Shown here: piece after piece, positions 15,136-40,586 of the stretch
Layout of the letters: each line of letters starts with the position of its first letter
How positions within the stretch are numbered: the first letter of the stretch is position 1
Source of the DNA: an uncultured Gemmatimonadaceae bacterium
Lineage (GTDB): Bacteria; Gemmatimonadota; Gemmatimonadetes; Gemmatimonadales; Gemmatimonadaceae
Length of the DNA stretch: 64,000 bases
Assembly: GCA_964474535.1 (NCBI GenBank)
Contig: CAYYSP010000003.1
Location: 134,999 to 198,998, forward strand
Reading direction: 5' to 3'
Translations under genes and position numbers: made by a program
The notes under the pieces: generated by a model
Seen by the model: the letters and a program-made list of their open reading frames with translations, nothing else
Database searches by the model: none
Told to the model about the DNA's origin: nothing

Positions 15136-16241
15136 TAGTTTCAGCACTCTCAAGTACAGACGTACGAGAGAACCTACTCGATCTTGATCCAGATGCTGCG
15201 ATCGCAAAACTAATGAGTTGGTTTGCTGAGCGCGGCCAACCTGCATACCGTGCTACGCAGCTCTTCAGGCGTCTTTGGGAAGCACCGGTGTCATCTTTCG
15301 ATGAAGTAACCGAATTGTCGGTGCCCATTCGAGAAGAGTTAGCTAAGCACTTTGTCATTCCATCCCTAGAGCTGGCAGACAGACAGAAGTCGAAGGACGG
15401 AACGGAAAAGTTTCTATTCAAACTTAACGACGGGCAGTTAATTGAAACTGTGGCGATACCGGACGGTAAGCGACTTACGCTTTGCATATCGTCACAGGCA
15501 GGATGTGCGCTACAGTGTGCTTTTTGCGCTACCGGTGCTATGGGCTTTCAACGCAATCTCACGCCCTCAGAAATCGCAGGACAGGTTCGTGCATTAAGAA
15601 TGTTAGAGCCACCGATTCATGCAACGAATATCGTTTTTATGGGAATGGGTGAGCCACTTATGAATTGGAAGGCGGTGTCGGTTACTCTCACGTTGCTTAA
15701 CGACGCACGCGCGTTGGGGATCGGAGCACGACACATAACGATATCAACTGTTGGGGTACTGCCAGGGATCGTGGCACTCGGCGAACGCAATGAACAGTTC
15801 AGACTCGCTATTTCAATTCATGCGCCGTCGGACGAGCTACGCAAAACGCTTATGCCCGTTAATACAAAGTACCCGTTGCGCTCAGTTATAGACGCAGCAC
15901 GTACCTTTGATAGGCGCGTTACCTTTGAGTACGTAATGTTGGCAGATACAAATGATCAACCTGAACATGCACACCAACTTGCTGAACTTGCGCGCGATTG
16001 TCGTGCGTTCGTGAACTTGATTCCACTTCATCCTGGTGGCTCAATGGGGTTCAATCCATCTTCTGCTCAAACCATAGCTTCCTTTGCAAACGTCTTGCGT
16101 AACTACGGAGTGGAAACGGCTGTACGACGTTCGCGCGGGCTAGATATTGCTGCTGCGTGCGGGCAGTTACGGACGGAGCGGTTGGGACGTAGGCGGTTGC
16201 CAGTTTCTTCCAACGACGACAGTAACATCAACGAATCGTGA
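15132..16241 (+). CDS. rlmN: 23S rRNA/tRNA (adenine-C2)-methyltransferase RlmN (radical SAM)
   Basis: YRATQLFRRLWE at the N-terminus, a radical-SAM cluster GCALQCAFCATG, GMGEPLMN and C-terminal AAACGQL. The start overlaps the upstream stop (ATGA). Confidence 0.9.
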   Translation: MIVSALSSTDVRENLLDLDPDAAIAKLMSWFAERGQPAYRATQLFRRLWEAPVSSFDEVTELSVPIREELAKHFVIPSLELADRQKSKDGTEKFLFKLNDGQLIETVAIPDGKRLTLCISSQAGCALQCAFCATGAMGFQRNLTPSEIAGQVRALRMLEPPIHATNIVFMGMGEPLMNWKAVSVTLTLLNDARALGIGARHITISTVGVLPGIVALGERNEQFRLAISIHAPSDELRKTLMPVNTKYPLRSVIDAARTFDRRVTFEYVMLADTNDQPEHAHQLAELARDCRAFVNLIPLHPGGSMGFNPSSAQTIASFANVLRNYGVETAVRRSRGLDIAAACGQLRTERLGRRRLPVSSNDDSNINES

Positions 16242-16667
16242 CGTATCGTCGCTAATTGCTATCGAATCAATGCTCAACGCGAGCGCGAGCTTTTCGGCCC
16301 ACTCTCGTTGGCCCGAGTGAAAAGTTACAGTCGAAATATCAGTAGGTTCGCGCGCACTATCGTAGTCGACGACGTCAAAACCCAAGTCTCTTATGTAGTT
16401 CGTAACACGCCTAGCAAGGCCTCGAGTTTGCGTTCCGTTTAGAACGCGCACACGTATGCGAACATCTGCTGGAGCTCTCCAATCGGGATCAATGTACTCA
16501 ACTGCTTCTGACGTTGTTACGACCTCTGCTTCATCGCGAGTCATCCACCAAGAAAGAAGCGAAACAGCAGCTACTACAGCTGCCATGAGCGCTATAACAG
16601 AACCTCGTCGAGTGGCGCGAGGCTCGGGGGCTAATGGTTCAGGAACTGTCACCGTACAGTATTCCAA
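16167..16667 (-). CDS. LytR_C domain-containing membrane-anchored protein
   Basis: 166-aa ORF with one N-terminal TM helix (VIALMAAVVAAVSLLSWW), then RVRVLNGTQTRGLARRVTNYIRDLGFDV, typical of the LytR C-terminal domain. Confidence 0.6.
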   Translation of the reverse strand: MEYCTVTVPEPLAPEPRATRRGSVIALMAAVVAAVSLLSWWMTRDEAEVVTTSEAVEYIDPDWRAPADVRIRVRVLNGTQTRGLARRVTNYIRDLGFDVVDYDSAREPTDISTVTFHSGQREWAEKLALALSIDSIAISDDTSRFVDVTVVVGRNWQPPTSQPLRP

Positions 16668-17215
16668 AGAAGCACGGTTTCCGGTTCGATCCCTTTTCCG
16701 TCACGCACTGCCCACTCTATTCGCATGCGTACTACCTGACGAAAGACATCGTCAAACTGAACGGGAACTAACTGAGAAAGAAAAGCGCGATCCTCACGCA
16801 TAAAGTTACGTCCAGGCTCCAAAAAATCTGCCATGTAAAGCGCGCGACCTGTGCGCGACCACTCAGCGTTACCTATCGTGTGCCACCTAATTGCTTCAAG
16901 AACATCAGCTCTCGTTTCCCCGTCCGCCTCAAGTCGAATAGCTGCTGCGAATCCATGCAGCATTCCGGTTGGGCGGACATAATCGCCGGTAACTGCGCGC
17001 AGTGATGTCTCGTCGGCGTCGCGCAACGCATCGTGCCATGCACCCGCGTCACGCCAAGCCTGCTGCTCTGCCGCAGACAAGCGTAAAGCGTCGGCCCATG
17101 AATCCAATAGCGTAACAACTCGCTGTATATGTTCGGCACGCTTTGGAGTTACGACTGTCCAGGACGGCATTACCTGAACAATGGCGGGTACCGAATCACG
17201 CTGCTTTCCACTCAT
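16649..17215 (-). CDS. HD-superfamily hydrolase, YqeK-like
   Basis: 188-aa ORF containing HIQRVV...AGAWHDALRD...LHGFAAA...AIRWHTIG...LYMADFLEPGR, which resembles the YqeK (Ap4A hydrolase) HD pattern. Called by eye only. Confidence 0.5.
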   Translation of the reverse strand: MSGKQRDSVPAIVQVMPSWTVVTPKRAEHIQRVVTLLDSWADALRLSAAEQQAWRDAGAWHDALRDADETSLRAVTGDYVRPTGMLHGFAAAIRLEADGETRADVLEAIRWHTIGNAEWSRTGRALYMADFLEPGRNFMREDRAFLSQLVPVQFDDVFRQVVRMRIEWAVRDGKGIEPETVLLWNTVR

Positions 17216-17243: not shown

Positions 17244-18050
17244 TTAAGCAGCTGAATCAGCGTCTAAAGCGTCTCGCATCTCGCGCACCAACTCAATAGC
17301 GCTGTTAATAGACACGCCTGCTGCGCGAACTATTGCACTTCCAACTATCACTCCGTCCGCATACCGCGAAGCTTCAACTGCTTGCTTGGCAGAAGAAATA
17401 CCAAAGCCAACGCAAATAGGAAGTGATACTGCAGTGCGCAAACGAGAAACTGTATCGGGGAGCTCCGCTGCCAATGAGCTTTGCTCGCCGGTTACGCCGA
17501 GCCTACTAATTAGATATACAAAACCACCACCGCGACCTTCGGAACCAATGTCCTTCATCCTCTGCAAAGGAGTCGTTGGTGCAACAAGACGGATTAGATC
17601 TAACCCTTGAGAGCCCAGCCATGACTCCCGCTCTGGGTCGGCACCAACTGGAAGGTCGGTTATAAGAAGACCGCTAATTCCACTAGCAGCGGCCTTGGCA
17701 GTGAGGGTAGTTCCTGCAGCCAGAATAGGGTTGAGATAACTAAAGAGAACAACAGGAATTGTTAGCGACGCACGTTGCAAAATGGCAAATGTTTCGTTCA
17801 GCGTAATGCCCTGTTCAATGGCGACCTGTGAACTACGCTGAATAACTGGCCCGTCAGCCATTGGATCTGAGAACGGAACGCCAACCTCAACGATATCCGC
17901 ACCTGCACTCTCCAACCCTTGCAGCAACTCTACCGACTGTTCAGCTGAGGGATAGCCGGCAGTTACATAGCAGATAAGGGCTTTACGCCTTTCTGCCTTT
18001 AGCTTCTCAAAGCGGCGAGATATCGGAGACAGCGTCACGTTAGGCATCAC
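17244..18050 (-). CDS. trpA: Tryptophan synthase alpha chain
   Basis: YVTAGYP, VEVGVPFSDPMADGPVIQ and GFGIS motifs. The start (GTG 18050 or ATG 18047) overlaps the stop of the HD-GYP ORF. Confidence 0.9.
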   Translation of the reverse strand: MMPNVTLSPISRRFEKLKAERRKALICYVTAGYPSAEQSVELLQGLESAGADIVEVGVPFSDPMADGPVIQRSSQVAIEQGITLNETFAILQRASLTIPVVLFSYLNPILAAGTTLTAKAAASGISGLLITDLPVGADPERESWLGSQGLDLIRLVAPTTPLQRMKDIGSEGRGGGFVYLISRLGVTGEQSSLAAELPDTVSRLRTAVSLPICVGFGISSAKQAVEASRYADGVIVGSAIVRAAGVSINSAIELVREMRDALDADSAA

Positions 18051-19501
18051 GCAAAGTAATCGCTAACTCGGATACCGTAACGGTCAGGATCTTCGGTGCG
18101 GGTAATCGTCTTTACATAGCCGCCATCTGAGTTTCTGTCGGCGAGACTAAAAGGTTGCCCATCAAAGCGGTTACCGCGATCATCAAATAGTACGCGAACG
18201 ATCGGTCGAGCAAGCGTTCCCGAATCAGAGTTTGCAGCCACCACGATCGCGATTTCGCCGGTATCAAGCCCGACAACCGTACCTACTGGGTAAATGCCAG
18301 TAAGATTGATAAATGCTTTGACGATCACTGGATCCATTCCTAGGCGCTTGTTCTCGCGCATACCTCTAACGACATCTGCTGGCGTCCAAGGTTTGTCTTG
18401 ATACACTCTCGTTGAGGTAGCCGCGTCAAAGCCGTCTACGATTGCCACTATTCGACTAAAAAGAGATGGAGAACGCAGACGCACCGGCGCCGGGTAGCCT
18501 GACAGATCTATTCGCATATGGTGTTCATATGCGGTGGTCATGGCACGCCACGCACGCGCGGCGCTACCGTTCATTGCGAACAGAGCCAGAACACCGCGCC
18601 AAGTATGGGTTTTGAGCATGCGGAACTCATCTTCGCTTAACCCTGAACGTTTATTCAACAGTTCAATAGGAACGCGTGATTTCCCTATATCGTGCATAAG
18701 TGCGGCAAGTCCCAAATCGAACAACTGCACTTTAGACAAGCCTATACGGCGTCCTAACGCTACCGACAGGATACACACATTCACGCTATGTACAAAAGTG
18801 TAATCATCAAATTCACGCAGTGTCGTGAGACCAATAAGCGATACTGAGTCGCTCATTATGGAGTCGACGATACCCTGCACCGCACGCTTTGCTTGTTTAA
18901 GTGCAGGGCTGCGTCCCATGCGTGCGCCAGTGAGAAGCTCTCTCGTAACATTAAGTGAGCGCATATAAGTTTGACGAGCGCGCTCATGCTCATCTTCCTC
19001 TTCATCGTCTAGGTCATCATCGTCTGACATTGGTTCAATTACAATATTGTCTACATGCTCCGCCTCCAAATGCGCAATTAAACGATCGGCACATTCAGCG
19101 CGCGTAAGTTCCCCTTGAGGTAACAAAAGTGCGTTTAGCAAAGAAACCCAGCTGCTTGTTAAGGGAACTGCAGTCCAAACAATGCCTCCGGCACCAGACG
19201 CACGCATTCTCCCTAGCAGGTGAGCTACCGCGGCGTAACTGTCCAACTGAAGCCGTAGTCGAATTCCGTTAACAAACAGAGAGTCGCCTGCTGTTCGCAG
19301 TTCGCACTGTCCGGACTGTTCAAACAGTTTCGTCGTCGCACTCTCCAACTCATTAAGTGCGTTTCTTACGGCCGCGTTCTCTATGGGATAGAGACGTACT
19401 GAACGCAGCGCTGAGTGAAGCGAGGTTACAAAAGTACGAACAGCTTGCTGAACGCCCGCTCCGTCCTGTAGTCCAGCACCTTCACGCGCGGCAGCTTTCA
19501 C
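18047..19501 (-). CDS. HD-GYP domain protein (predicted cyclic-di-GMP phosphodiesterase) with an uncharacterised N-terminal domain
   Basis: 484-aa ORF with ALMHDIGKSRVP (HD) and YEHHMRIDLSGYPAP (HH...GYP). An acidic linker DDDDLDDEEEDEHE separates the N-terminal domain from the HD-GYP domain. The GTG start overlaps the upstream stop (GTGA). Confidence 0.85.
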   Translation of the reverse strand: MKAAAREGAGLQDGAGVQQAVRTFVTSLHSALRSVRLYPIENAAVRNALNELESATTKLFEQSGQCELRTAGDSLFVNGIRLRLQLDSYAAVAHLLGRMRASGAGGIVWTAVPLTSSWVSLLNALLLPQGELTRAECADRLIAHLEAEHVDNIVIEPMSDDDDLDDEEEDEHERARQTYMRSLNVTRELLTGARMGRSPALKQAKRAVQGIVDSIMSDSVSLIGLTTLREFDDYTFVHSVNVCILSVALGRRIGLSKVQLFDLGLAALMHDIGKSRVPIELLNKRSGLSEDEFRMLKTHTWRGVLALFAMNGSAARAWRAMTTAYEHHMRIDLSGYPAPVRLRSPSLFSRIVAIVDGFDAATSTRVYQDKPWTPADVVRGMRENKRLGMDPVIVKAFINLTGIYPVGTVVGLDTGEIAIVVAANSDSGTLARPIVRVLFDDRGNRFDGQPFSLADRNSDGGYVKTITRTEDPDRYGIRVSDYFA

Positions 19502-21195
19502 GAACCACTCCTAAGTGCACGAGACACCGCGCTGCGCACTACAATATCCTGGGCATCCGCTCCCTTCCTAAGAGCCGCCACCGCTAATGGGGAGCCAATT
19601 ACTCCTAAAGCGTGAGCGGCGCAAGCGCGAATATCAGATGCTTCACGGTGACCCAACAACCCGCGCCCGTTTAGCATGCTATCGAGAATCGTTACTCCTG
19701 CATCTCCCGACACCGATCCAAACGCCTCAAAGAACGCCATTTTCTCACTAAGATCAGCGTGCTTAAGTGAGCGTTTCTGCAACAAGTTCTTAAGCCGAGG
19801 AAATGCGCCAGCGTATCCATGCGTCGAAACTGCACGAAGTGCCAAAATACGCACGTCTCGGTCGGCATCCTCGATAGCGCGCTCGATGGCCTGAAGCGCA
19901 CCGGGCGACGCTATCGCGTTTAGCGCTGCCAATGTATCAGCACGCAATGAAGAATCGCCAGTTGATAACAGCCTAGTAAGCGGCGCAACGAAGGGCGGTG
20001 AAGGAATTGCTCGCGCAATAAAAACAGCGCCATGCACGACAGATGAATCGTGGTGGTCAAACATACGAGCAAGTTCCGCGGTGTGTCGCGCGCCTAGTCG
20101 GGCAATGGCACCTTCAATCGGAGCCCGCACCGGCGATGACTGCGACGTACCATACCACCCCAACAATGGCACCATTGCAGAAGGACGCAACTCAGCAAAC
20201 AGGTCGTCAAGAAGTGGCGCAAGCAAAGCATGATCGCCCGCATCTACTGCGTGCAGAATTTGCGCGATTACATCCGCAGATGAGAGTCGAGCTGAAAGTG
20301 ATTCTAACGCCACTCGCGCCGCATCATCAATGCGGTCACTAGCGCGCGACAGCGTGACACGAGCCTCGCGCAAAATTGTGGCAGCAATAGGAAACGAACC
20401 CTCTGACAAAGCTTCCGCAATAAGCCTATCTAATACCTCACATGCTTCGCATTGCGCCGCTGCTTCGTCTTGACCTTCCACGATGTCAAAGAGTGCAGCA
20501 ACAACCTGAATTCTTCCGTCAGTCGCATACTCACGACGCAGCTCTTCCTGGAGATGTGAAACTTCTTCAGGATTAAGAAAGTGGAGCGTTGATTCGAACG
20601 ACTCCATATCAAGAAAGGCGGGAGCTGGACCGTCTCCCGGCATATCCGTTTCAACCAACTGTGCAGCAGCTGGTAAAGAACGGTCAAAATCGCCACCATC
20701 TCCATCAGTGGCCACTCCATTCATGCTATCAAAATCTAAAGCGAGCTCGACGTGACGATACTGCAAACATTGAAAGTCGGCTATCCACAATAAAGTTACA
20801 AGATCGTCGTCTTCCGCAGGCGCAGTCTTGCTCCTAAGTAGAATATCGAGAAACGAGTCTAGCTCGTCAGTTTCGAATCCGTCAGTTAGAGTTAAACGCC
20901 GCAAACCGTCGCGGTATAAAAGCCACGGAAGCCCTGCCGCGCCACGTTCCTCATCCTGATATACGACAATGTTGTCAGCGTGAAATGCAGTTTCAGTAAT
21001 TGATACTGAAACAGATGGAACGACCGTCCATAAAGCAGAAAACGCTGCACGCGCGCGTTCTAGATTTGAGGTGCGTGATGGATTGTTCGGTAGATACAAT
21101 TGAAATGCACGAAAGGTACGCGCAAGCGCACCTAGCGCGTCTTCCAGACACTTAACAGCTACTGGCGAAATGGGATCGTCAGTGGTCGTTTGCAT
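19498..21195 (-). CDS. HEAT-repeat (PBS-lyase HEAT-like) protein with an uncharacterised N-terminal domain
   Basis: 565-aa ORF. The C-terminal third has repeated D.D..VR..A..AL..IG units (EDADRDVRILALRAVSTHG, SDIRACAAHALGVIGSP, QDIVVRSAVSRALRS). The ATG overlaps the trpB stop (TAATG). Confidence 0.7.
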   Translation of the reverse strand: MQTTTDDPISPVAVKCLEDALGALARTFRAFQLYLPNNPSRTSNLERARAAFSALWTVVPSVSVSITETAFHADNIVVYQDEERGAAGLPWLLYRDGLRRLTLTDGFETDELDSFLDILLRSKTAPAEDDDLVTLLWIADFQCLQYRHVELALDFDSMNGVATDGDGGDFDRSLPAAAQLVETDMPGDGPAPAFLDMESFESTLHFLNPEEVSHLQEELRREYATDGRIQVVAALFDIVEGQDEAAAQCEACEVLDRLIAEALSEGSFPIAATILREARVTLSRASDRIDDAARVALESLSARLSSADVIAQILHAVDAGDHALLAPLLDDLFAELRPSAMVPLLGWYGTSQSSPVRAPIEGAIARLGARHTAELARMFDHHDSSVVHGAVFIARAIPSPPFVAPLTRLLSTGDSSLRADTLAALNAIASPGALQAIERAIEDADRDVRILALRAVSTHGYAGAFPRLKNLLQKRSLKHADLSEKMAFFEAFGSVSGDAGVTILDSMLNGRGLLGHREASDIRACAAHALGVIGSPLAVAALRKGADAQDIVVRSAVSRALRSGS

Positions 21196-22421
21196 TAGAC
21201 TTCGGGTATCGTGTGCTTACTGATAGTACCCATATCTTTGTCACCGCGACCGCTTACACAGAGCAGCACATCGTCATCCGCACTCCAGCGACCCGGTGAT
21301 TTAGCAATCCATGCGACCGCGTGTGCAGTCTCGAGCGCAGGAATAATTCCCTCGAGCTTGCTTAGTAGTGCAACACCGAACAGTGCCTCATCATCTGTAA
21401 TAGACACGTATGACGCACGCTTGCTGTCCTTAAGCCAAGAGTGCTCTGGGCCTACACCGGGGTAGTCGAGTCCTGCGGAGATCGAGTGAGCAGGATGAAC
21501 TTGACCGTTCTCATCTTGAAGCAGATAGCTTAGGGCACCATGGAGCACGCCAGCTTTGCCACATGTAAGTGAAGCGCTGTGTCGGTCGGTGTCGATACCA
21601 TCGCCAGCCGCTTCAACACCTATAAGCTGAACCGATGGATCATCGGTAAAGGCAGCAAACACACCCATTGCGTTTGAACCTCCACCTACACACGCCACCA
21701 CGGCAGCGGGTAGCTTGTTGTTCTCCTTTAACAGCTGAGCGCGCGCCTCCTTACCAATTACAGACTGGAACTCACGAACCATCGACGGATAAGGGGACGG
21801 CCCAACCACTGAGCCAATTATGTAGTGGCTTGTATTCACCGTAGACACCCAGTCTCGAATTGCCTCGGTGGTAGCGTCCTTTAGCGTTCTAGTACCAGAG
21901 GTAACAGGAACGACAGTAGCGCCAAGTAGCTTCATTCGAAACACATTAAGCTCTTGACGACGCATGTCTTCCTCGCCCATATACACAACGCATTCCAATC
22001 CGAACTTTGCACAAATTGTTGCGGTTGCAACGCCATGTTGACCAGCACCTGTTTCCGCAATAATACGTCGCTTGCCCATTCGCATTGCAAGCAGCGCTTG
22101 GCCAACTGTGTTGTTAATCTTGTGTGCGCCTGTGTGATTCAGATCTTCGCGTTTAAGCCAGACTCGAAATCCTACACGTTCGCTTAAACGTGGAGCAAAT
22201 GTTAAAGGAGTTGAACGACCAACGTAGTTGATAAGCAAAGAATTGAGTTCTGAACGGAACGAAGCGTCATTACACGCTGCGAGAAACGCGTCACTCAGCT
22301 CCTCTAATGCAGGGATTAAAGTCTCGGGAACGTACCTACCGCCAAATGGTCCGAACCGTTCTTCGACAATCGCTCTCCCGCTGTCCTCACCAAACGCTAC
22401 CTTCGCTTCCTCTAACGACAT
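21195..22421 (-). CDS. trpB: Tryptophan synthase beta chain
   Basis: [21 protein letters not shown] (PLP lysine) and GGGSNAMG motifs, 408 aa. Confidence 0.95.
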
Positions 22422-22438: not shown

Positions 22439-23101
22439 TTATCCGTTAACTAGCTGAACTTTATCGATGAAGGAACGGACCTTGGAATGGTCCTTAACCC
22501 CCGGTGACAACTCAACACCGGAAGATACGTCGACGACGTCAGGAGAAAGCACCCTGATAGCCTCAAGGACGTTATCTGCTTGGAGCCCTCCTGCCAGAAC
22601 GATACGAACAGTCGGAACTGTTTCGCGCAGCAGTCGTAATTGTTCAACTACGGCCTTCCAGTCGAAGGTTCTTCCGGTGCCACCCAATTGACCAACGGCG
22701 CCACTATCCAGCAACAACCAGCCTGTAGTGCGGGCCAGATCTAAAGCAGTGGCTGGCACACCGCTGGCACCAACCCGCACAACTGGCCACAGCTCGGCGG
22801 CGGTTAGAGCTGTGATTTGAGTCACCTCATCGATGTCACGTTCTTCATGCAGTTGCAAAACATCGAGCGATAGCTCCTGCTGCATATCTACGATCTCGTC
22901 TACAGACTGCTTTCCAATTACCGCCACCTTCTTAGCGCCGAATACTTCTGCGAGTATCAATTTCGCGTTAGCAACCGAGATATTTCTCGGGCCGCCTGCA
23001 AAGATTACACCTAAGTATTTCGCGCCAGCATCCGCAGCGTAAAGCACGTCATCACGTGTAGTTAGGCCGCAAACTTTTACTGTAACCTTGTCTTTGGTCA
23101 T
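22439..23101 (-). CDS. trpF: Phosphoribosylanthranilate isomerase
   Basis: The internal ATG at 23101 gives MTKDKVTVKVCGLTTRDD... (the usual KICG start). GGTGRTFDW and LAGGL follow. The longer ORF to 23227 overlaps trpC and is not needed. Confidence 0.85.
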   Translation of the reverse strand: MTKDKVTVKVCGLTTRDDVLYAADAGAKYLGVIFAGGPRNISVANAKLILAEVFGAKKVAVIGKQSVDEIVDMQQELSLDVLQLHEERDIDEVTQITALTAAELWPVVRVGASGVPATALDLARTTGWLLLDSGAVGQLGGTGRTFDWKAVVEQLRLLRETVPTVRIVLAGGLQADNVLEAIRVLSPDVVDVSSGVELSPGVKDHSKVRSFIDKVQLVNG

Positions 23102-23153
23102 GCTAAGTGCTCTAAGGAAGAAGCTCCTAACTGAACGCAGCGGTGTGAAGACC

Positions 23154-23942
23154 TCATCGATTGCAGCGCGTAAGGCTTGCGAACTTTTCCAGTTCGCTTC
23201 GCGGATTAGTGGTCGCACTAAGCGCACTTCCGATTAGCAGCGCATCGGCGCCCGCTGCGACTGCTGGCATCGCATCGGCTGTTGTATTCATACCGCTCTC
23301 CGCCACTGCAGCAATGTGACGAGGAATGCTTGCCATTAAACGAGACGCGTTATTTGGGTCGATTTCGAGTGTTTCCAGGTTCCTGTTGTTGACTCCAACA
23401 ATTGTCGCGCCAGTGCTAATTGCCACCGCAAGCTGCGCCTCATCGCGAACTTCGAAGAGTACTTGTAACTGAGCCTTACGCGCTGTTTCGGCGAGTAATC
23501 GTAAACGATTGGGCTCTATTGCTCTAACAATAAGAAGTACTGCGGACGCGCCATGTAGTCGCGCCTCCCATATTTGCACAGGGTGCACAATGAAATCCTT
23601 TCGCAGCACCGGAATTTTCACCGCGCTTGTTACTTGGGCCAAGTCGTGCAGCGAACCTCCAAACCTATCGGGTTCAGTAAGCACGGATATGGCCGCAGCT
23701 CCGCCGTTTTGATAAGCAATTGCCTGAGCGACGGCGTTTAGCATGGGGGCAATCGCTCCCTTAGATGGAGACGATCGCTTCACTTCGGCTATTACGCCGA
23801 CTTTACCACCGTTGTGTTGTGCAGACAACGCTTCAAAAAAGTCGGGAGGGACAGCTGTTAACAATGCAGCTTCCTGAATCTCCACCTCCCTATGTGCAAC
23901 AGACTCTGCCCGAAGATACGAGGCCGCTGTTAATTCGCCCAA
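23154..23942 (-). CDS. trpC: Indole-3-glycerol phosphate synthase
   Basis: IAEVKRSSPSKG, RKDFI and VGVNNRNLETLEID motifs. The ORF is open to 24128, but that would overlap lexA. The in-frame TTG at 23942 (LGELTAASYLRAE...) gives the usual ~262 aa. Exact start uncertain. Confidence 0.85.
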   Translation of the reverse strand: MGELTAASYLRAESVAHREVEIQEAALLTAVPPDFFEALSAQHNGGKVGVIAEVKRSSPSKGAIAPMLNAVAQAIAYQNGGAAAISVLTEPDRFGGSLHDLAQVTSAVKIPVLRKDFIVHPVQIWEARLHGASAVLLIVRAIEPNRLRLLAETARKAQLQVLFEVRDEAQLAVAISTGATIVGVNNRNLETLEIDPNNASRLMASIPRHIAAVAESGMNTTADAMPAVAAGADALLIGSALSATTNPRSELEKFASLTRCNR

Positions 23943-24066
23943 TGTACCAGATGGAGGAAGCCATTCACCCGCCCCCGCCCCTGCCTCACCCCTTCGTTGC
24001 TCTGCTTCTTGCACTTCGGCCTGTCTTCGGTTAGTGTTAGTTCGGTACTTTTTCGGTTGGCGCCGT

Positions 24067-24085
24067 CCGCGCCAATCGCTCTCAC
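24067..24085. promoter_or_regulatory. Perfect palindrome TTGGCGC-N5-GCGCCAA upstream of lexA; candidate operator or hairpin
   Basis: ttggcgccgtccgcgccaa lies 23-41 nt upstream of the lexA ATG, inside the lexA/trpC divergent region. It matches no LexA box consensus that I know, so the function is a guess. Confidence 0.2.
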
Positions 24086-24107
24086 TGCTCGTCAGGGCGG
24101 AGATACT

Positions 24108-24716
24108 ATGCCTCTTACCAAACGACAACGCGAAATCCTTTCCTTCCTTTCGGACTACGCCGGAAACAACGGTTACGCCCCAAGTTTCGAGGAAATCGCG
24201 TCACAGTTCAACTATAACTCGCTGGCAACGGTGCACGAGCACCTTACCAACCTTGAGCGTAAAGGGTATATCCGGCGCACTTTCAATGAGAGCCGCGCCA
24301 TAGAAATTCTCCCCTCCGATGTTATTCAGCGGTCTGTAGAGCTTCCGATATTGGGGCGAGTCGCGGCCGGTGCTCCCATTGAGTCGTACATGTCAGGCGA
24401 GACAATGTCTGTGCCCGACGGTTTCTTAAGGCGAAATGGCAGCCACTATGTTTTGCAGGTAAAGGGAAACTCAATGATTGACGACCAAATACGCGATGGC
24501 GACTACGTCGTGATTAACGACCGAAAAGCAGTTGATAACGGAGAGATGGTGATAGCGCTTGTTGACGATGGCGGCGCTACCGTTAAACGCTACTATAGAG
24601 AGCGCGACGGCCGCATTAGGCTTCAGCCATCCAACGATCTTATGTCACCCATATATGTACACGAAAACGACGTTCACATTCAAGGCATAGTTGTTGGAGT
24701 GCTTCGCCGCTACTAG
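24108..24716 (+). CDS. lexA: LexA repressor (S24 peptidase)
   Basis: The internal ATG at 24108 gives MPLTKRQREILSFL... (winged HTH). The cleavage region VAAGAP and the catalytic VKGNSM ... VKRY follow. 202 aa. Confidence 0.9.
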   Translation: MPLTKRQREILSFLSDYAGNNGYAPSFEEIASQFNYNSLATVHEHLTNLERKGYIRRTFNESRAIEILPSDVIQRSVELPILGRVAAGAPIESYMSGETMSVPDGFLRRNGSHYVLQVKGNSMIDDQIRDGDYVVINDRKAVDNGEMVIALVDDGGATVKRYYRERDGRIRLQPSNDLMSPIYVHENDVHIQGIVVGVLRRY

Positions 24717-24787: not shown

Positions 24788-25843
24788 CTAGCTGCCCAGC
24801 GCACTCTTTAATTTTTGCAGCGCCGCGTAACCCCGACCCTCGTGAAGCGCTCGCTTCGCGATTTCTAACGCGCCTGCGTAATCGTTAGCTGCGTCCGCCA
24901 CAAGAATCGCGGCAGCTGCATTCAATAAAACAGCAGCACGAGCAACGTCTACACCCCTGCCACCGTTATCGCCGCCGCCGCCGCCGCCCTTCAATACATC
25001 CTCTATTATCTGTGCGTTCGCCGCTGGAGTACCGCCAGCCAGCCCACTTATCTCATAATCAGCAAACCCGTAGTCGGCAGGATCTATCATCCAACTCGAC
25101 AGCTGTCCACCTCTTACTTCGACAACCTGAGTTCTGCCGACCGGAGAAATCTCGTCTAGCCCCAATTCACCGTGAACAACCATAGCACGTACCGCTCCAA
25201 GCCTTGCAAGCGCCTCGGCTAACAGCTGAAGCCTAGCCGCTTCGGCAACACCAACCACCTGTCTACCAGCACGCGCCGGGTTTGCTAGCGGACCCACAAT
25301 GTTCATTACAGTTGGTATTGCCAACTCTCTTCTTATCGGGCCCACATGGCGTAGTGCTGGATGCATAAGTGGCGCAAACATAAACACTATACCCGCGCTC
25401 TCAAGCGCCTTCGCCATTTGCTCAACCGATATCTCAATGGGAACGCTCAACGCTTCTAGAACGTCGGCGCTACCAGACTTAGACGTAAACGACCGGTTGC
25501 CATGCTTCGCGATACGCACGCCAGCGCCAGCAGCCAAGAATGCCGCAGCAGTAGAAATATTAAACGTGCCAATAGCACCGCCGCCGGTGCCGCACGTATC
25601 TACCAAATTGTCAGCTTCGGAGGCAGGAAGAACAACCATTACCTCGCGCAACGCTTCAACAACGCCTGCAATTTCTTCTGACGTTTCGCCTTTCACACGA
25701 AGCGCCATTAATAGAGCCGCTACCTGAGCATCGGTGCCCTCACCTCGCATAATCACACGAAAAGCATCGGCGATCGCTTCGCGGCTAAGCGAAGAGCGAG
25801 CAGCTAATGTGCGAACCGCGATCTTTAATGCGCTATCCGACAC
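24788..25843 (-). CDS. trpD: Anthranilate phosphoribosyltransferase
   Basis: ALLMALRVKGET, DTCGTGGG and KHGNRSFTSKSGSADVLEAL motifs, 351 aa. Confidence 0.9.
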   Translation of the reverse strand: MSDSALKIAVRTLAARSSLSREAIADAFRVIMRGEGTDAQVAALLMALRVKGETSEEIAGVVEALREVMVVLPASEADNLVDTCGTGGGAIGTFNISTAAAFLAAGAGVRIAKHGNRSFTSKSGSADVLEALSVPIEISVEQMAKALESAGIVFMFAPLMHPALRHVGPIRRELAIPTVMNIVGPLANPARAGRQVVGVAEAARLQLLAEALARLGAVRAMVVHGELGLDEISPVGRTQVVEVRGGQLSSWMIDPADYGFADYEISGLAGGTPAANAQIIEDVLKGGGGGGDNGGRGVDVARAAVLLNAAAAILVADAANDYAGALEIAKRALHEGRGYAALQKLKSALGS

Positions 25844-27140
25844 GCGGCGTCTCCAACAAACGAGTAGATAGCTGATTGGCTGTCGCGATAAGCGAAATAA
25901 CTAGGCTGAGCAAACGCACTCGTTCTACATCTTCATCCGTAAACACACCGCGCTGAGCACGGTTCGTAAGGTTAACTACGCCAACAAGCTGATCGTGGTG
26001 AAGGAGTGGGAAACTTATGAAACTGCCGGTTGTGAAATACTGATCTCGTAACAAAGGATGTTGTGAAGCATCGCGAACATCCTGCACTAGCAACGGCTGC
26101 TTTGCTGCAGCAACACGCCCTGCGACGCCTTCACCAATTCTTATACGCATCCCCTCGGTGATGTGAGGGGCAACGCCGCGAGCGGCGGCAAGGTACAAAT
26201 GGTCCGGCTCAGGAGCACGCAGCATTAGCGAGCAACGTTGCGCCTGCATGTCATCACCTACGAGCGCTAACAAGCCATCTACCATTGCACGCGCATCAGA
26301 TGTACCCGCGCCCAAAGTCAGAACTCTGTCAACCAAGTACAATGTGCGCGTTCGTTGACGTAACGACTCGCTACGCCTGTGCAACTCAACGTGTGCTTGC
26401 TCCAACTGCCCAATAGCTGCGGTTAGCTGTTGGTCAGAAAGATCGGCGCGACGTATAGCGCGGCGCGCATCCTCAGACGCGCGGGCCGCCTCAGCTTGCA
26501 GCGCTACGGCCTCTGCCGCAACAACTGCATTTACTGACGGCGTAGTTCGCGCTTCACGCAGTTCACGTTCGAGTGCACCCAGCTTCCTAACGTACTCGCC
26601 ATGAACCCGCTGAGTTACATCTTCGAGAGTCCGAACGGCCTCCTCTCGCGCGTCGCGCTCAGCGATTCGTCCAAACGCCAAATCAAAGAGCGCGACCGCA
26701 GGCGCTAGTCGGTCGCTAGTTCGACTACCAAAAATCTTCCGAGGCTCGTATAGCGCCAGCACCGCCGCGAGATACCCTTCGACTCGCAGCCCTCGTACCG
26801 CCAACATACCACCGTCTAGGCTGCTGGAAAAACCAAACAATCGCGCATAGTCTGCCGACCTGTCACTTACGTCAACAAATTGACCGCCCGCTGTAACGCG
26901 CGCACGAATCGCTTCTGGTAAATGGTCGAACGTGGTTTCAATGGTGGTCTTTACAACAGTTCCCTGCACCGGCGCCAATCGGTCGCTAAGCATGTCTCGT
27001 CTGCCGTCATAGCTCAGAAGAGCAATGCCTGCGCCTCTATCGAGCTCGGCGAGACCTTCACCAAGCGCTACGAGAGCGCCTTCAATGTCGGGTGCTACGC
27101 CCAGGGCGTGAGCTAACGAAGCCAGCGATCGAGGAGCCAT
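25833..27140 (-). CDS. GAF - coiled coil - GAF protein with no recognisable output domain
   Basis: The start is taken at the internal ATG 27140 (MAPRSLASLAH). The C-terminal GAF domain is clear (IGEGVAGRVAAAKQPLLVQDV...SFISFPLLHHDQLVGVVNL). The central ~90 aa is Ala/Arg/Glu/Gln-rich and helical. The N-terminal half is GAF-like by eye. The stop overlaps the trpD start by 11 nt. Confidence 0.7.
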   Translation of the reverse strand: MAPRSLASLAHALGVAPDIEGALVALGEGLAELDRGAGIALLSYDGRRDMLSDRLAPVQGTVVKTTIETTFDHLPEAIRARVTAGGQFVDVSDRSADYARLFGFSSSLDGGMLAVRGLRVEGYLAAVLALYEPRKIFGSRTSDRLAPAVALFDLAFGRIAERDAREEAVRTLEDVTQRVHGEYVRKLGALERELREARTTPSVNAVVAAEAVALQAEAARASEDARRAIRRADLSDQQLTAAIGQLEQAHVELHRRSESLRQRTRTLYLVDRVLTLGAGTSDARAMVDGLLALVGDDMQAQRCSLMLRAPEPDHLYLAAARGVAPHITEGMRIRIGEGVAGRVAAAKQPLLVQDVRDASQHPLLRDQYFTTGSFISFPLLHHDQLVGVVNLTNRAQRGVFTDEDVERVRLLSLVISLIATANQLSTRLLETPRVG

Positions 27141-27246
27141 GAATAAAGATAGGGACGGGATACACGAGACATCAAAATAGACGTCGCGCGTAACGCGCAA
27201 TGTGGAAACACTCGCACCTTCATGTCAAACTATTTAGCTTGCGCTA

Positions 27247-29453: not shown

Positions 29454-30950
29454 ATGACACACAGCAGTAACACAGAAACAGAAGGTACCATCGAAAGCTT
29501 CGAATCGCTTTTTTCTAAAAGTGGGCATACACCGTACACGTCCCCACTAGGGCAACGCTATGCGAGCACCGCTATGCTTAATTTGTGGGGTCCAGAGGCG
29601 CGCTACGGTTTATGGCGAAGACTTTGGATTGTACTAGCGGAGAATCAACGCAAGCTTGGCATCGACATACCGGAAACTGCCATCGGTGAGATGAGAGCCC
29701 AAGTTGATAACTTTAACTTTGCGGCAGTTGCTGATTACGAACGTCGTTTTCGACACGACGTAATGGCGCACGTTCACGCCTTTGGCGACGTCGCGCCTGC
29801 GGCTAAAGCATTTATTCATTTGGGTGCGACTAGCTGTTACGTAACAGACAACGCTGAGCTCATTCTTATGCGAGAAGGGCTCATTCTAATTCGAAACAAG
29901 CTGTTAGCTATACTCGATTCACTTTCCAAGTTTGCGTATGCATGGAAAGACTTGCCCGCGCTCGGCTACACACACTTGCAACCAGCTCAGCTAACAACAG
30001 TGGGCAAACGCGCAACTTTGTGGATGCAAGATTTGGTGTTAGACATTGAGGATATCGAACATCGAATCGCGACCCTTCCGTTTAGAGGAGTGAAGGGAAC
30101 AACTGGGACACAAGCCAGTTTCCTTACTCTATTTGAAGGTAATCATGCCAAAGTGAGAGAGTTGGATAGGCGTGTGGCCACAGCGATGGGTTTCGAACGG
30201 CTGATTCCAGTTACCGGTCAAACCTATTCGCGCAAGATTGACGCCCAAGTTTTGTCGGTCGTTGCTGGAGTTGCTGCGTCAGCATCCAAGTTTTCGGGCG
30301 ACATTCGCATGTTGCAATCATTTGGCGAAATAGAGGAGCCATTTGAGAAAGATCAGATAGGCTCATCTGCTATGGCTTACAAGCGCAACCCTATGCGTTC
30401 TGAGCGTATAGCAGCGCTTGCCCGCTTTGTTTTGTCGCTAGAACCCAATGCAAATCAAACGCATGCGGTTCAGTATTTTGAACGAACGCTCGACGATTCG
30501 GCAAACCGACGTTTATCCATACCAGAGTCGTTTCTTGCTACTGACGCGATACTTGTGCTAATGCAGAACATCGCTGGTGGATTAGAAGTGCACCCAGCGC
30601 GCATTCGCCGCCGTATTAACGACGAGCTTCCTTTCATGGCAACAGAGGAACTCATAGTTCGATTTGTGAAAGCTGGCGGCGATAGACAAGAGGCACATGA
30701 GATTATTCGTGGTCACAGTATTGCTGCAGCACGTGCGGTTAAAGACGGCGCTGAGAAGAACGATATGTTAGAGCGTTTAGCTGCCGACCCTGCGTTTACG
30801 GTATCATTACAAGACATACAGGCTGCGGCCGATCCGACGCGTTTCACTGGACGCGCGCCGGCGCAAGTCGAAGAGTTTATTAGCGAAGTTGTATCGCCTT
30901 TGCTTAGTACGCCCAGAGCTGCGGTTGAGCACGAAGAGGTACGCGTATGA
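29454..30950 (+). CDS. purB: Adenylosuccinate lyase (long form)
   Basis: [17 protein letters not shown] and [15 protein letters not shown] (signature loop), 498 aa. Confidence 0.9.
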
Positions 30951-31894
30951 CGGCATCGTTGCGTGAGACATCGTTGCCATTAGCGCTATTGCGACGTGGC
31001 AAGGTTCGCGATGTTTATGAAGTCGATACCGACAGACTGCTGTTGGTTACTACCGATCGCATCAGTGCCTTCGATGTGGTAATGAACGAGGCAATACCAT
31101 ACAAGGGAATCGTTTTAACACAGCTATCATCGTGGTGGTTCAAGCAGCTTGGAAGCATCGAAGGTGGCGCCGCAGTTAAGCATCACCTTATTAGCGCGGA
31201 CATTAACGAGATCGTATCGGAGTTACCCGCGCTTGCACCATACAAAGACATGCTCGCGGGGCGCACAATGTTGTGCATTCGCACAGAGGTTGTGCCAATA
31301 GAGTGCGTAATTCGCGGTTACATAACCGGGTCCGCCTGGAAAGAGTATAGTGCAACTGGCACACTAGCTGGCGAGCTACTCACTTCGGGGTTGCGCGAAA
31401 GCGAGAAGCTCAGGCCGGCAATTTTTAGTCCGGCAACAAAGGCTGAAACGGGACACGATGAGAACATCACAGTTGACACAGTTATTGCTCAAGTAGGAGA
31501 GGAGACAGCAGCAACGCTCGAGCGGCTCGCGCGCAAAGTGTACGACTTTGGATGTGCTCGCGCAGAACCACGAGGTATTATTGTCGCCGACACGAAGTTT
31601 GAGTTTGGTTGGCGCAACGGTGAGTTGTTGCTAATTGACGAAGTACTAACCCCAGACAGCTCGCGATTCTGGCCGGCGAACGTGTACGAGCCTGGCCGTA
31701 CTCAGCCAAGCTTTGACAAACAGCCACTACGTGACTGGTTGGAAGTTGAACGTAAGGCAGGTCGTTGGAACGGTGACGCGCCTCCTCCTACGTTGCCTGA
31801 AGAAGTTGTTAACGAGACTAGCACTCGCTACCAAGACGCATATCGCCGCATAACGGGCGAAGACCTTCCGTACATCAACTCCTACAACAGCTAA
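30947..31894 (+). CDS. purC: Phosphoribosylaminoimidazole-succinocarboxamide synthase
   Basis: [23 protein letters not shown] and [14 protein letters not shown] motifs. ATGA overlap with purB. Confidence 0.9.
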
Positions 31895-36755: not shown

Positions 36756-36771
36756 CCGGGAGTTTCCCGTC

Positions 36772-40398: not shown

Positions 40399-40586
40399 GT
40401 CAGAAATATTAATATATTTTCGGACATAATGCAATGAAGACTATTGAGCCATGTGTTAAGTTTTGTTAATTTTACTATCTCAACGATCCCTATTTTAGTC
40501 CTTTAACAACAATTGACTCGAGGTTAAAAGAAATGGGTGACTTTCTATGAACTATCTGTTTCTACTGATTGAGAAGCTTGAAACCT

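What the first reader, a model, noticed from the sequence alone, without database searches (positions are those of the whole stretch)
18047..21195. A HEAT-repeat / HD-GYP gene pair is translationally spliced between trpB and trpA
Seen in sequence:
- The trpB stop overlaps the ATG of a 565-aa HEAT-repeat ORF (TAATG, 21193-21197).
- That ORF's TGA overlaps the GTG of a 484-aa HD-GYP ORF (GTGA, 19498-19501).
- The HD-GYP ORF's TGA overlaps the trpA start (GTGATG, 18045-18050).
- There is no intergenic space, hairpin or promoter room anywhere along the four genes.

Established knowledge: trpB and trpA are normally adjacent and translationally coupled because their products form the alpha2-beta2 tryptophan synthase. 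HD-GYP domains hydrolyse cyclic di-GMP (some hydrolyse cGAMP).

Inference: a 3.15-kb second-messenger module is co-transcribed and stoichiometrically coupled with the two tryptophan synthase subunits. This suggests a physical or regulatory link between cyclic-dinucleotide turnover and Trp/indole synthesis. I do not know of a described example.
Basis: partly seen in the sequence, partly recalled or inferred. Interest (0 to 1): 0.72.

Follow-up and report, generated by a model that had tools for sequence, protein, structure and literature searches.

The report
Signalling genes wedged between trpB, trpA
In this bacterium and almost every sampled member of its phylum (Gemmatimonadota), a HEAT-repeat gene and an HD-GYP cyclic-dinucleotide phosphodiesterase gene sit between, and overlap, the two tryptophan synthase genes; this old arrangement, which I could not find described, ties breakdown of a second messenger to expression of the tryptophan operon.

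Summary
On the minus strand, trpB (22421-21195), a 565-aa HEAT-repeat ORF (21195-19498), a 484-aa HD-GYP ORF (19501-18047) and trpA (18050-17244) abut through the overlaps TAATG, GTGA and GTGATG.

It is neither an assembly artefact nor a one-off.
- **HEAT-anchored loci:** 84 of 89 informative loci show the same trpB-HEAT-HDGYP-trpA core. They include the complete genome of the isolate Gemmatimonas phototrophica and a Longimicrobiales MAG.
- **TrpA-anchored sample:** 12 of 14 loci with TrpA at least ~47% identical carry the insert. None of the more distant loci does.
- **Junctions:** 4- or 1-nt overlaps are kept at trpB->HEAT in 76/77 loci and at HEAT->HDGYP in 78/80.
- **Selection:** both inserted genes are constrained about as strongly as trpA (median dN/dS ~0.08-0.10).
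- **Proteins:** the HD-GYP catalytic residues are invariant, and the two proteins share a ~130-aa N-terminal domain that matched no Pfam model or PDB entry.

Paralogous HEAT+HD-GYP pairs exist at non-trp loci (once behind a receiver gene), so the pair is an autonomous signalling module.

Most likely it is a two-protein phosphodiesterase module whose dosage is tied to trp-operon expression. A physical link to tryptophan synthase is untested. I found no prior description. I rate it a new variant of a known kind, with moderately high interest.

The parts
21195..22421 (-). trpB, tryptophan synthase beta chain, 408 aa
   Evidence: Matches PALP at 2.8e-46 and TIGR00263 trpB at 607.6 bits against a cutoff of 392.
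21193..21197 (-). Junction 1: TAATG, where the trpB stop overlaps the HEAT-ORF ATG by 1 nt
   Evidence: Read directly from the sequence. A 4- or 1-nt overlap is present at this junction in 76 of 77 related loci.
19498..21195 (-). HEAT-repeat partner gene, 565 aa
   Evidence: Matches Pfam HEAT_2. The AF2 model has pLDDT 84. The family contains more than 130 full-length clusters at 50% identity, and every named member is from Gemmatimonadota.
20746..21195 (-). HEAT protein N-terminal alpha/beta domain, residues ~1-150, shared with the HD-GYP protein
   Evidence: hhalign on sub-alignments gives probability 85%, E=6.2e-6 over 124 columns, against E=0.11 for the reversed control. The predicted secondary-structure order is the same in both models. 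There is no Pfam or PDB match.
19501..20598 (-). HEAT/armadillo-type alpha-solenoid, residues ~200-565. It is preceded by a low-confidence, Asp/Gly-rich linker (residues 152-201).
   Evidence: The AF2 model is all-helical with pLDDT mostly above 90. Foldseek and HMM searches hit alphaRep / PBS-HEAT proteins.
19498..19501 (-). Junction 2: GTGA, where the HD-GYP GTG start overlaps the HEAT-ORF TGA stop by 4 nt
   Evidence: Read directly from the sequence. A 4- or 1-nt overlap is present at this junction in 78 of 80 related loci.
18047..19501 (-). HD-GYP phosphodiesterase gene, 484 aa
   Evidence: Matches HD_5 at 3.5e-16 and HD at 1.1e-09. PDB sequence matches are 5z7c V-cGAP3 at 4e-23 and 4mcw PmGH at 2.3e-20. 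Foldseek hits are HD-GYP structures.
19031..19459 (-). HD-GYP protein N-terminal alpha/beta domain, residues ~15-157, homologous to the HEAT protein N-domain. An acidic linker (DDDDLDDEEEDE) follows it.
   Evidence: Supported by the hhalign comparison and the two AF2 models. There is no Pfam match apart from a sub-threshold DUF3391 hit at residues 162-204.
18302..18814 (-). HD-GYP catalytic domain, residues ~230-400
   Evidence: H238, H270-D271, K274, H299, H327-H328, D332, G335-Y336-P337 and D356 are invariant in 20- and 32-sequence family alignments.
18050..18289 (-). C-terminal small beta-strand domain of the HD-GYP protein, residues ~405-484
   Evidence: The AF2 model shows strands at 409-469 with pLDDT ~85. 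G407, T408, L412, D413, R432, P433 and R436 are conserved. Its function is unknown.
18045..18050 (-). Junction 3: GTGATG, where the HD-GYP TGA stop overlaps alternative trpA starts (GTG or ATG)
   Evidence: Read directly from the sequence. In relatives, the candidate trpA start nearest the HD-GYP stop lies from -35 to +30 nt of it in 65 of 66 loci.
17244..18050 (-). trpA, tryptophan synthase alpha chain, 268 aa
   Evidence: Matches Trp_syntA at 1.3e-77 and TIGR00262 at 223.3 bits against a cutoff of 102.
22439..24128 (-). trpC (23154-24128 as a maximal ORF) and trpF (22439-23227 as a maximal ORF), the upstream genes of the same transcription unit. True starts are probably internal to these ORFs.
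   Evidence: Matches IGPS at 7.7e-72 and PRAI at 2.4e-38. The same order is seen in relatives.
16649..17215 (-). YqeK-like HD hydrolase gene, 28 nt downstream of trpA, possibly the last gene of the unit
   Evidence: Matches TIGR00488 YqeK at 1.6e-12, below the family cutoff. It lies directly after trpA in the Gemmatimonas-like clade and 0.6-3 kb away in other clades.
24788..27200 (-). GAF-domain protein gene (27200-25833) overlapping trpD (25843-24788). This is the upstream trp unit, separated from trpC by a divergent lexA on the plus strand (ORF 23997-24716, probable ATG at 24108).
   Evidence: Identified by Pfam and by reading the sequence. The arrangement is conserved in most relatives but is absent in L086 and L168.

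Best explanation
**What it is (high confidence).** A two-gene signalling module lies exactly at the trpB|trpA junction. It encodes a catalytically intact HD-GYP cyclic-dinucleotide phosphodiesterase and a non-enzymatic HEAT-repeat partner. It was inserted in an ancestor of the phylum Gemmatimonadota and has been kept there.

**How it most likely works (inferred).**
- The two proteins share a ~130-aa N-terminal alpha/beta domain followed by a linker. They therefore probably act as a hetero-complex. The HEAT solenoid would provide a docking or regulatory surface and the HD-GYP protein the catalysis.
- The module is transcribed as part of one trpC-trpF-trpB-HEAT-HDGYP-trpA(-yqeK) mRNA.
- It is translated by termination-reinitiation at the overlapping stop/start sites.
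- The amount of phosphodiesterase made therefore follows trp-operon expression.
- Whenever the cell raises or lowers tryptophan biosynthetic capacity, it also shifts its capacity to degrade c-di-GMP (or a related cyclic dinucleotide).

No direct contact with tryptophan synthase is required for this model.
For: **Shown**
- Geometry and domain identities are as described.
- 84 of 89 informative HEAT-anchored loci have the same core. They include G. phototrophica AP64 (CP011454.1) and deeply divergent members.
- The core is also present in a 'Longimicrobiales bacterium' MAG and in a related 849-kb contig. It therefore spans two classes.
- In a TrpA-anchored sample, which is unbiased with respect to the insert, 12 of 14 loci with TrpA at least ~47% identical carry the insert. 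None of about 52 more distant loci does.
- Overlapping junctions are conserved: 76/77 and 78/80.
- The flanks vary while the four-gene core stays. Variations include GAF present or absent, yqeK adjacent or 3 kb away, an NFACT gene inserted, and HmuY upstream of trpF.
- HEAT and TrpB NJ trees both resolve the same two main clades, which indicates vertical co-inheritance.
- Median dN/dS is 0.097 for HEAT and 0.077 for HDGYP, against 0.073 for TrpA and 0.044 for TrpB.
- The HD-GYP metal-ligand and signature residues are invariant.
- The fold and sequence match HD-GYP enzymes.
- The two proteins share an N-terminal domain.
- Base composition is the same as in the neighbouring genes.
- There is no excess of promoter-like or terminator-like sites, and no Rfam element.

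**Inferred**
- Co-transcription, translational coupling, hetero-complex formation and the physiological consequence are all inferred.
Against: - There are no transcript, protein or enzymatic data.
- How the trp operon is regulated in this phylum is unknown. 'Tracks tryptophan demand' therefore assumes Trp-responsive control that I could not find: there is no leader or riboswitch and no conserved palindrome in the lexA-trpC spacer.
- If translational coupling were strict, a signalling enzyme would be made at levels similar to an abundant biosynthetic enzyme, which is unusual.
- Paralogous pairs work at unrelated loci (L001, L040, L063, L087, L169), and one lineage has lost the insert (L093). 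The linkage is therefore not obligatory.
- The HD-GYP signature deviates from the consensus: HHMRxDLSGYP instead of HHExxDGxGYP.
- The PmGH E185-equivalent third-metal ligand is Tyr. Activity and substrate are therefore uncertain.
Confidence: 0.55

Rival explanations
1. Functional passenger (a frozen accident). The HEAT/HD-GYP module is a working signalling unit whose role has nothing to do with tryptophan. It landed between trpB and trpA once. It stays because any imprecise excision or rearrangement would cut trpA off from its promoter and its translational coupling.
For: - The same module occurs at unrelated loci with other neighbours: beta-lactamase/HlyIII in L001 and L040, and a receiver gene in L087.
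- One lineage removed it cleanly and kept trpB-trpA (L093).
- No Trp-related ligand domain is recognisable in either protein.
Against: - The core is retained across two classes while the flanking gene order changed repeatedly.
- Conservation of the 4-nt overlaps themselves suggests that the coupled expression is maintained, not merely tolerated.
- Among the best 80 species-representative genome loci, the trp-embedded copy is by far the commonest: 76 embedded, 3 at non-trp loci and 1 uninformative.
- Where a paralogue exists, the embedded copy is still kept (L010 with L040, L006 with L063).
Confidence: 0.25
2. Physical partnership with tryptophan synthase. The HEAT solenoid docks on TrpB and/or TrpA, or the shared N-domain binds indole, Trp or serine. 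Phosphodiesterase activity would then report the state of the enzyme, or the pair would regulate or scaffold the alpha2-beta2 complex.
For: - Deep conservation of gene order inside an operon is a classical indicator of physically interacting products. This is established comparative-genomics knowledge, recalled rather than tested here.
- The pair sits exactly between two subunits that must assemble, with conserved translational-coupling geometry.
- HEAT repeats are protein-protein interaction modules.
- In L087, the position occupied by trpB is taken by a stand-alone receiver protein, a typical protein partner or input.
Against: - There is no direct evidence of any kind.
- Paralogous pairs function away from the trp genes.
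- L093 shows that tryptophan synthase does without the pair.
- TrpA and TrpB here are ordinary by sequence, scoring well above the equivalog cutoffs.
- No complex prediction could be run.
Confidence: 0.15
3. The HD-GYP protein is not a c-di-GMP phosphodiesterase. It might degrade 3'3'-cGAMP or pGpG, or act mainly as a nucleotide-binding or protein-binding switch. This concerns the substrate and is compatible with any of the genomic explanations above.
For: - The best solved-structure match by sequence is the cGAMP-specific V-cGAP3 (5z7c, 4e-23). It shares Tyr at the position of the third-metal ligand E185 of PmGH.
- The signature differs from the consensus at two positions.
Against: - All other metal ligands and the GYP motif are invariant.
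- c-di-GMP-active HD-GYPs (PmGH, PA4781, DvhD) are almost equally good matches.
- I know of no sequence rule that assigns HD-GYP substrate.
Confidence: 0.3
4. Assembly artefact or strain-specific oddity.
For: None was found.
Against: The same order is present in about 98 independent loci from genomes and metagenomes, including a closed isolate genome. Base composition is identical to that of the flanking genes.
Confidence: 0.01

Closest known systems
Canonical trpB-trpA gene pair (e.g. E. coli trpEDCBA), with overlapping stop/start and translational coupling of the two tryptophan synthase subunits
   Same: The genes and the trp(D)CFBA order are the same, with the same style of overlapping stop/start junctions. 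In about 52 non-Gemmatimonadota loci sampled here, trpB lies upstream of trpA with no HEAT/HD-GYP insert, in most of them directly adjacent.
   Different: Here the coupling chain runs through two unrelated cistrons (3.15 kb), so trpB and trpA are no longer adjacent. The E. coli details come from my own knowledge and were not tested here.
HD-GYP phosphodiesterases: RpfG (Xanthomonas), PmGH (PDB 4mcw), PA4781 (4r8z), DvhD (9rbz), Bd1817 (3tm8), V-cGAP3 (5z7c)
   Same: The catalytic HD-GYP fold and the residues H..HD..H..HH..D..GYP..D are the same.
   Different: - The N-terminal domain matched no Pfam model or PDB entry, in place of the usual REC, PAS or GAF. REC is the commonest partner domain according to PMC2952852.
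- There is an extra C-terminal beta domain.
- Tyr replaces the third-metal Glu of PmGH.
- It is encoded with a dedicated HEAT-repeat partner.
- It is embedded in a biosynthetic operon.
REC-HD-GYP response regulators of the RpfG type
   Same: In L087 the module is immediately preceded by a stand-alone receiver gene. This suggests that the same kind of phospho-relay input can feed the module.
   Different: The receiver is a separate protein, not a fused domain. The trp-embedded copies have no receiver at all.
PBS-type HEAT-repeat proteins (CpcE/NblB lyase-type, MTH187, designed alphaRep)
   Same: The C-terminal ~200 residues match these repeats by sequence and predicted structure.
   Different: Scores are far below the CpcE/NblB equivalog cutoffs (about 21 bits against 300-330). 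The protein has an extra N-terminal alpha/beta domain and a long helical region (residues 200-370) with no sequence match. It is not a bilin lyase.
trp operons carrying foreign or extra genes (e.g. Streptomyces trpC-trpX-trpB-trpA; the Bacillus aro supraoperon). These are recalled from memory and were not checked here.
   Same: They are a precedent for non-trp cistrons being tolerated inside trp transcription units.
   Different: Those inserts do not split trpB from trpA and are not second-messenger enzymes.

Membership tests
HD-GYP domain phosphodiesterases | HD superfamily fold with a match to the HD_5/HD profiles | tested here: met
   HD_5 scores 59.8 bits against a cutoff of 27.2, and HD scores 39 bits against a cutoff of 22. 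All 32 family members scanned match. Foldseek top hits are HD-GYP structures.
HD-GYP domain phosphodiesterases | Metal-binding residues H, HD, H, HH, D | tested here: met
   H238, H270-D271, H299, H327-H328 and D356 are invariant.
HD-GYP domain phosphodiesterases | Signature HHExxDGxGYP, including the GYP triplet | tested here: inconclusive
   GYP and the preceding D are invariant. However, the motif reads HHMRxDLSGYP, with E changed to M and G changed to L. The motif filter used in PMC2952852 would miss it.
HD-GYP domain phosphodiesterases | Third-metal ligand (Glu, E185 of PmGH) of the trinuclear subclass | tested here: not met
   The aligned residue is the invariant Y234, as in V-cGAP3. This predicts a binuclear-type site. 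It does not exclude membership of the wider family.
HD-GYP domain phosphodiesterases | Hydrolysis of c-di-GMP or another cyclic dinucleotide | not testable with these tools
   This needs an enzyme assay.
HEAT-repeat (PBS/alphaRep-type) alpha-solenoid proteins | Match to a HEAT repeat profile, and a predicted helical-repeat solenoid | tested here: met
   HEAT_2 scores 44.5 bits against a cutoff of 27.7. The AF2 model is all-helical over residues 200-565 with high pLDDT. There are alphaRep hits.
Phycobiliprotein lyase / NblB family | Equivalog-level match to CpcE or NblB | tested here: not met
   About 21 bits against cutoffs of 300-330.
Single operon with translational coupling | Same strand, with stop/start overlaps or gaps too short for a promoter plus terminator | tested here: met
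   Shown, and conserved in relatives.
Single operon with translational coupling | Gene order conserved across distant genomes | tested here: met
   84 of 89 HEAT-anchored loci and 12 of 14 close TrpA-anchored loci, across two classes.
Single operon with translational coupling | One transcript spans all the junctions, and downstream translation depends on upstream translation | not testable with these tools
   This needs RNA-seq or RT-PCR, and stop-codon insertion or ribosome-profiling experiments.
DUF3391-type HD-GYP proteins | N-terminal DUF3391 domain above the Pfam threshold | tested here: not met
   17.4 bits against a cutoff of 27.8, covering only residues 162-204 (the linker). This sub-threshold match is seen in 11 of 32 members.

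The most novel reading that the evidence does not exclude
Tryptophan synthase itself is the sensor. The HEAT-repeat protein docks on TrpB/TrpA, in the way that it may dock on a phospho-receiver in the paralogous REC-HEAT-HDGYP module. It then gates the HD-GYP phosphodiesterase according to the catalytic or ligand state of the enzyme. Flux through the last step of Trp synthesis (or free indole) would be converted directly into a cyclic-dinucleotide signal. This would be a metabolic enzyme hard-wired into second-messenger signalling throughout a phylum.
Probability: 0.12. Interest if true: 0.85.

Novelty: new variant of a known kind. Interest (0 to 1): 0.62.

Why it matters
- **An exception to a rule.** trpB-trpA is one of the most widely conserved adjacent gene pairs in prokaryotes, and it is a textbook case of translational coupling between subunits of one enzyme. 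A whole phylum has kept a 3.15-kb signalling module inside that pair, under purifying selection and with conserved overlaps. This is a clear exception.
- **An unusual link.** It is a rare hard-wired genomic link between amino-acid biosynthesis and cyclic-dinucleotide signalling.
- **A new protein pair.** It defines a two-protein HD-GYP system, consisting of an enzyme and a HEAT partner that share an N-terminal domain matching no Pfam model or PDB entry.
- **It is testable.** The cultured, fully sequenced Gemmatimonas phototrophica AP64 carries the arrangement.
- **If the link is only regulatory,** it still gives a handle on how these abundant soil and freshwater bacteria couple nutrient status to lifestyle decisions.

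Tried and rejected
- **Pairwise BLASTP of the two proteins** gave nothing significant. Full-length profile comparison was only weak (E=0.0043, probability 8%). The shared N-domain became convincing only with deeper N-terminal sub-alignments and a reversed control.
- **Foldseek on the full-length models** returned only HD-GYP and HEAT/ARM matches. The N-terminal domains found no PDB counterpart in the top 50 hits shown. I could not search the domains alone.
- **Pfam scan of the 32 HD-GYP-family members** found no known N-terminal domain.
- **RNA and promoter scans** of the operon region found nothing: Rfam and the promoter/terminator scan.
- **Search for a conserved gapped palindrome** (a candidate LexA box or operator) in the lexA-trpC spacer of 68 loci found nothing shared by more than 14 loci.
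- **The source organism of the window** could not be named. The exact-protein look-up failed and the clusters carry no names. Its placement in Gemmatimonadota rests on its homologues.
- **In the codon-usage table**, the trpF and aspS rows are invalid, because my trimmed coordinates broke the reading frame. Only the other rows are used.
- **Six literature searches** found no description of the arrangement. The mBio paper on Gemmatimonadota chromosome architecture does not mention the trp genes.
- **Misassembly and recent horizontal transfer** were considered and rejected.

Full report
**1. The observation**

On the minus strand, four ORFs abut without spacers: trpB (22421-21195), a 565-aa ORF (21195-19498), a 484-aa ORF (19501-18047) and trpA (18050-17244).
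- Pfam and NCBIfam confirm TrpB (TIGR00263, 607.6 bits) and TrpA (TIGR00262, 223.3 bits).
- The 565-aa ORF matches HEAT_2 at 1.9e-11.
- The 484-aa ORF matches HD_5/HD at 3.5e-16 and 1.1e-09, and carries the motif HHMRIDLSGYP.
- Upstream on the same strand lie trpF, trpC, then a divergent lexA, then trpD overlapped by a GAF-domain gene. Downstream lies a YqeK-like HD hydrolase gene.
- Consensus promoter-like and terminator-like sites are not enriched, and no Rfam family matches.

**2. Recurrence**

*HEAT-anchored loci.* The HEAT protein has a deep family. The word-indexed search returned 217 hits. The exhaustive search returned more than 130 full-length clusters at 50% identity. Every named member is from Gemmatimonadota, apart from one protein that carries both a Phycisphaerae and a Gemmatimonadaceae label.

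A scan of species-representative genomes found 577 encoding stretches, and the best 80 were fetched. Adding ten loci obtained by exact look-up gives 90 HEAT-anchored loci:

| Context | Loci |
|---|---|
| trp genes on both flanks | 68 |
| trpB upstream, downstream runs off the contig | 14 |
| trpA downstream, upstream runs off the contig | 2 |
| non-trp locus | 5 |
| uninformative | 1 |

The embedded set includes three notable cases:
- the closed genome of the isolate Gemmatimonas phototrophica AP64 (L085);
- three of the most divergent family representatives (L086, L168, L170);
- a 'Longimicrobiales bacterium' MAG and a related 849-kb contig (L171, L172).

Gemmatimonadales and Longimicrobiales belong to different classes, so the arrangement spans the cultured breadth of the phylum.

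*TrpA-anchored loci.* This test is unbiased with respect to the insert. I anchored on TrpA in metagenome contigs.
- Among loci whose TrpA is at least ~47% identical to the window's, 12 of 14 have the HD-GYP gene immediately upstream of trpA.
- Among about 52 more distant loci with an identifiable upstream gene, none has the insert. TrpB lies upstream of trpA, usually directly adjacent.

*Exceptions.* L112 has a TrpB only 55% identical and probably comes from another phylum. L093 is informative. It has trpF-trpB-(75 nt)-trpA-yqeK-LytR_C-S26 peptidase-rlmN. This is the clade's own downstream synteny, but without the insert. Its TrpA relatives are marine and Longimicrobiales-type Gemmatimonadota, and two of those relatives carry the insert. 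A clean secondary loss is therefore the most parsimonious reading. L093 also marks the insertion point exactly.

**3. Quality of the conservation**

- The candidate start closest to the upstream stop gives a 4- or 1-nt overlap at trpB->HEAT in 76/77 loci and at HEAT->HDGYP in 78/80. At HDGYP->trpA it lies between -35 and +30 nt in 65 of 66 loci.
- The flanks are not constant. The GAF gene upstream of trpD is absent in L086 and L168. yqeK is adjacent to trpA in the Gemmatimonas-like clade but 0.6-3 kb away elsewhere, behind GAF-MCP, folB and folK. An NFACT gene follows trpA in the Longimicrobiales-type loci. In L170, trpF is preceded by HmuY/TonB genes. The four-gene core is thus more stable than its surroundings.
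- HEAT and TrpB NJ trees both recover the same two main clades.
- Median pairwise dN/dS is 0.097 for HEAT, 0.077 for HD-GYP, 0.073 for TrpA and 0.044 for TrpB.
- GC and GC3 of the insert equal those of trpB and trpA.

The insert is therefore ancient, vertically inherited and functional.

**4. The proteins**

*HD-GYP protein.* H238, H270-D271, K274, H299, H327-H328, D332, G335-Y336-P337 and D356 are invariant.
- By sequence, the best solved relatives are V-cGAP3 (3'3'-cGAMP phosphodiesterase, 5z7c, 4e-23), PmGH (4mcw) and PA4781 (4r8z).
- The AF2 model (pLDDT 74) matches only HD-GYP structures at significant E-values.
- The Glu that binds the third metal in PmGH is Tyr here, as in V-cGAP3.
- The signature deviates from HHExxDGxGYP at two positions.
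- A small C-terminal beta domain of unknown role follows the catalytic domain.

*HEAT protein.* The model has pLDDT 84. It has an N-terminal alpha/beta domain (~1-150), a low-confidence linker (152-201) and an all-helical solenoid (200-565). The last ~200 residues of the solenoid resemble PBS-HEAT/alphaRep repeats.

*Shared N-terminal domain.* The N-terminal domains of the two proteins have the same predicted order of secondary-structure elements. They align profile-to-profile with probability 85% and E=6.2e-6 over 124 columns, against E=0.11 for a reversed control. No Pfam or PDB match exists for this domain. In both proteins a linker follows the domain (clearly acidic in the HD-GYP protein). 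This is what one expects of a cognate pair that associates through, or receives the same input through, that domain. This last step is inference.

**5. Paralogues**

Five loci carry the pair away from the trp genes.
- L001 (G. groenlandica) and L040 have it between a beta-lactamase-family gene and an HlyIII gene.
- L063 and L169 have other contexts.
- In L087, a 139-aa stand-alone receiver gene ends one base before the HEAT start codon.

Two MAGs hold both an embedded copy and a non-trp copy (L010 with L040, L006 with L063). The pair is thus an autonomous signalling module that can be wired to different inputs. The trp-embedded copy is the widespread one.

**6. Mechanism**

*Best-supported explanation (confidence 0.55).* The module is a two-protein cyclic-dinucleotide phosphodiesterase. 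It is transcribed within the trpCFB-HEAT-HDGYP-trpA(-yqeK) unit and translated by termination-reinitiation. Its dosage therefore follows trp-operon expression.
- Shown: the geometry, conservation, purifying selection, catalytic residues and shared domain.
- Inferred: the single transcript, the coupling, the complex, the substrate and the physiological outcome.

*Rivals.*
- A functional passenger trapped in an essential operon (0.25).
- A physical partnership with tryptophan synthase (0.15).
- A substrate other than c-di-GMP (0.3). This is a separate question and is compatible with any of the genomic explanations.
- An artefact, which is excluded.

**7. What is known**

Full-text searches that combined Gemmatimonas/Gemmatimonadetes, trp operon, trpA/trpB, tryptophan synthase, HD-GYP, HEAT repeat and c-di-GMP found no description of this arrangement. 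A 2010 census of c-di-GMP proteins defined HD-GYP domains by a motif that this family does not fully match. That may have helped it escape notice.

The components are members of known kinds (an HD-GYP enzyme and a HEAT-repeat protein). Three things appear to be new: their pairing through a shared N-terminal domain, their fixed position inside trpBA, and the phylum-wide conservation of that position.

**8. Verdict**

I rate it a new variant of a known kind, with interest 0.62.

Noticed in passing
window 23997-24716 (+), probable ATG at 24108; same position in L002, L004, L085, L086, L168, L172: A lexA gene lies on the opposite strand between trpD and trpC, splitting the trp cluster into GAF-trpD and trpCFB...A units. 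This is conserved across the phylum. A crude search found no conserved palindrome (candidate LexA box) in the lexA-trpC spacer.
   Followed up: partly
window 25833-27200 (-): A 455-aa protein has a C-terminal GAF domain and a long N-terminal region with no Pfam match. Its gene overlaps the start of trpD by 11 nt. It is conserved in most Gemmatimonadales-type loci but absent in L086 and L168. It is another signalling-type gene welded to a trp gene.
   Followed up: partly
L004 10024-12102; L170 8896-10983: In one large clade, trpA is followed, within 0-20 nt, by a ~690-aa GAF + MCPsignal (chemoreceptor-type) gene. In L004, folB and folK follow it.
   Followed up: no
L087 5581-9089: A stand-alone receiver (REC, 139 aa) gene abuts a HEAT + HD-GYP pair at a non-trp locus, between PEP carboxylase and a glutamate-synthase-like gene. 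This is a three-gene REC-HEAT-HDGYP module.
   Followed up: partly
L168 7725-9196: In this divergent trp-embedded locus the HD-GYP gene is called as two overlapping ORFs of 284 and 210 aa. This is either a frameshift error or a decaying copy.
   Followed up: no
L093 773-2845: A marine Gemmatimonadota-type contig has trpB and trpA separated by only 75 nt with no insert, yet has the clade's downstream synteny (yqeK, LytR_C, S26 peptidase, rlmN). This is probably a precise secondary loss of the pair.
   Followed up: partly
window 16649-17215 (-): A YqeK-like HD-domain hydrolase gene (Ap4A hydrolase family, below cutoff) lies 28 nt downstream of trpA, followed by a LytR_C-domain gene (16167-16667). 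It is a second HD-superfamily nucleotide hydrolase, possibly in the same transcription unit.
   Followed up: partly
window 38757-40434 (-): An AbiEii-type nucleotidyltransferase toxin gene (type IV toxin-antitoxin, 2.3e-37) has an overlapping upstream 214-aa ORF that could be its antitoxin. It sits next to an otherwise housekeeping purine-biosynthesis cluster (purB, purC, purQ, purL and purF at 29454-38151, interrupted by psd and pssA-like genes).
   Followed up: no
P0082: The same protein is labelled 'Phycisphaerae bacterium' in one NCBI record and 'Gemmatimonadaceae bacterium' in another. This is probably a mis-binned contig and not a genuine occurrence outside the phylum.
   Followed up: no
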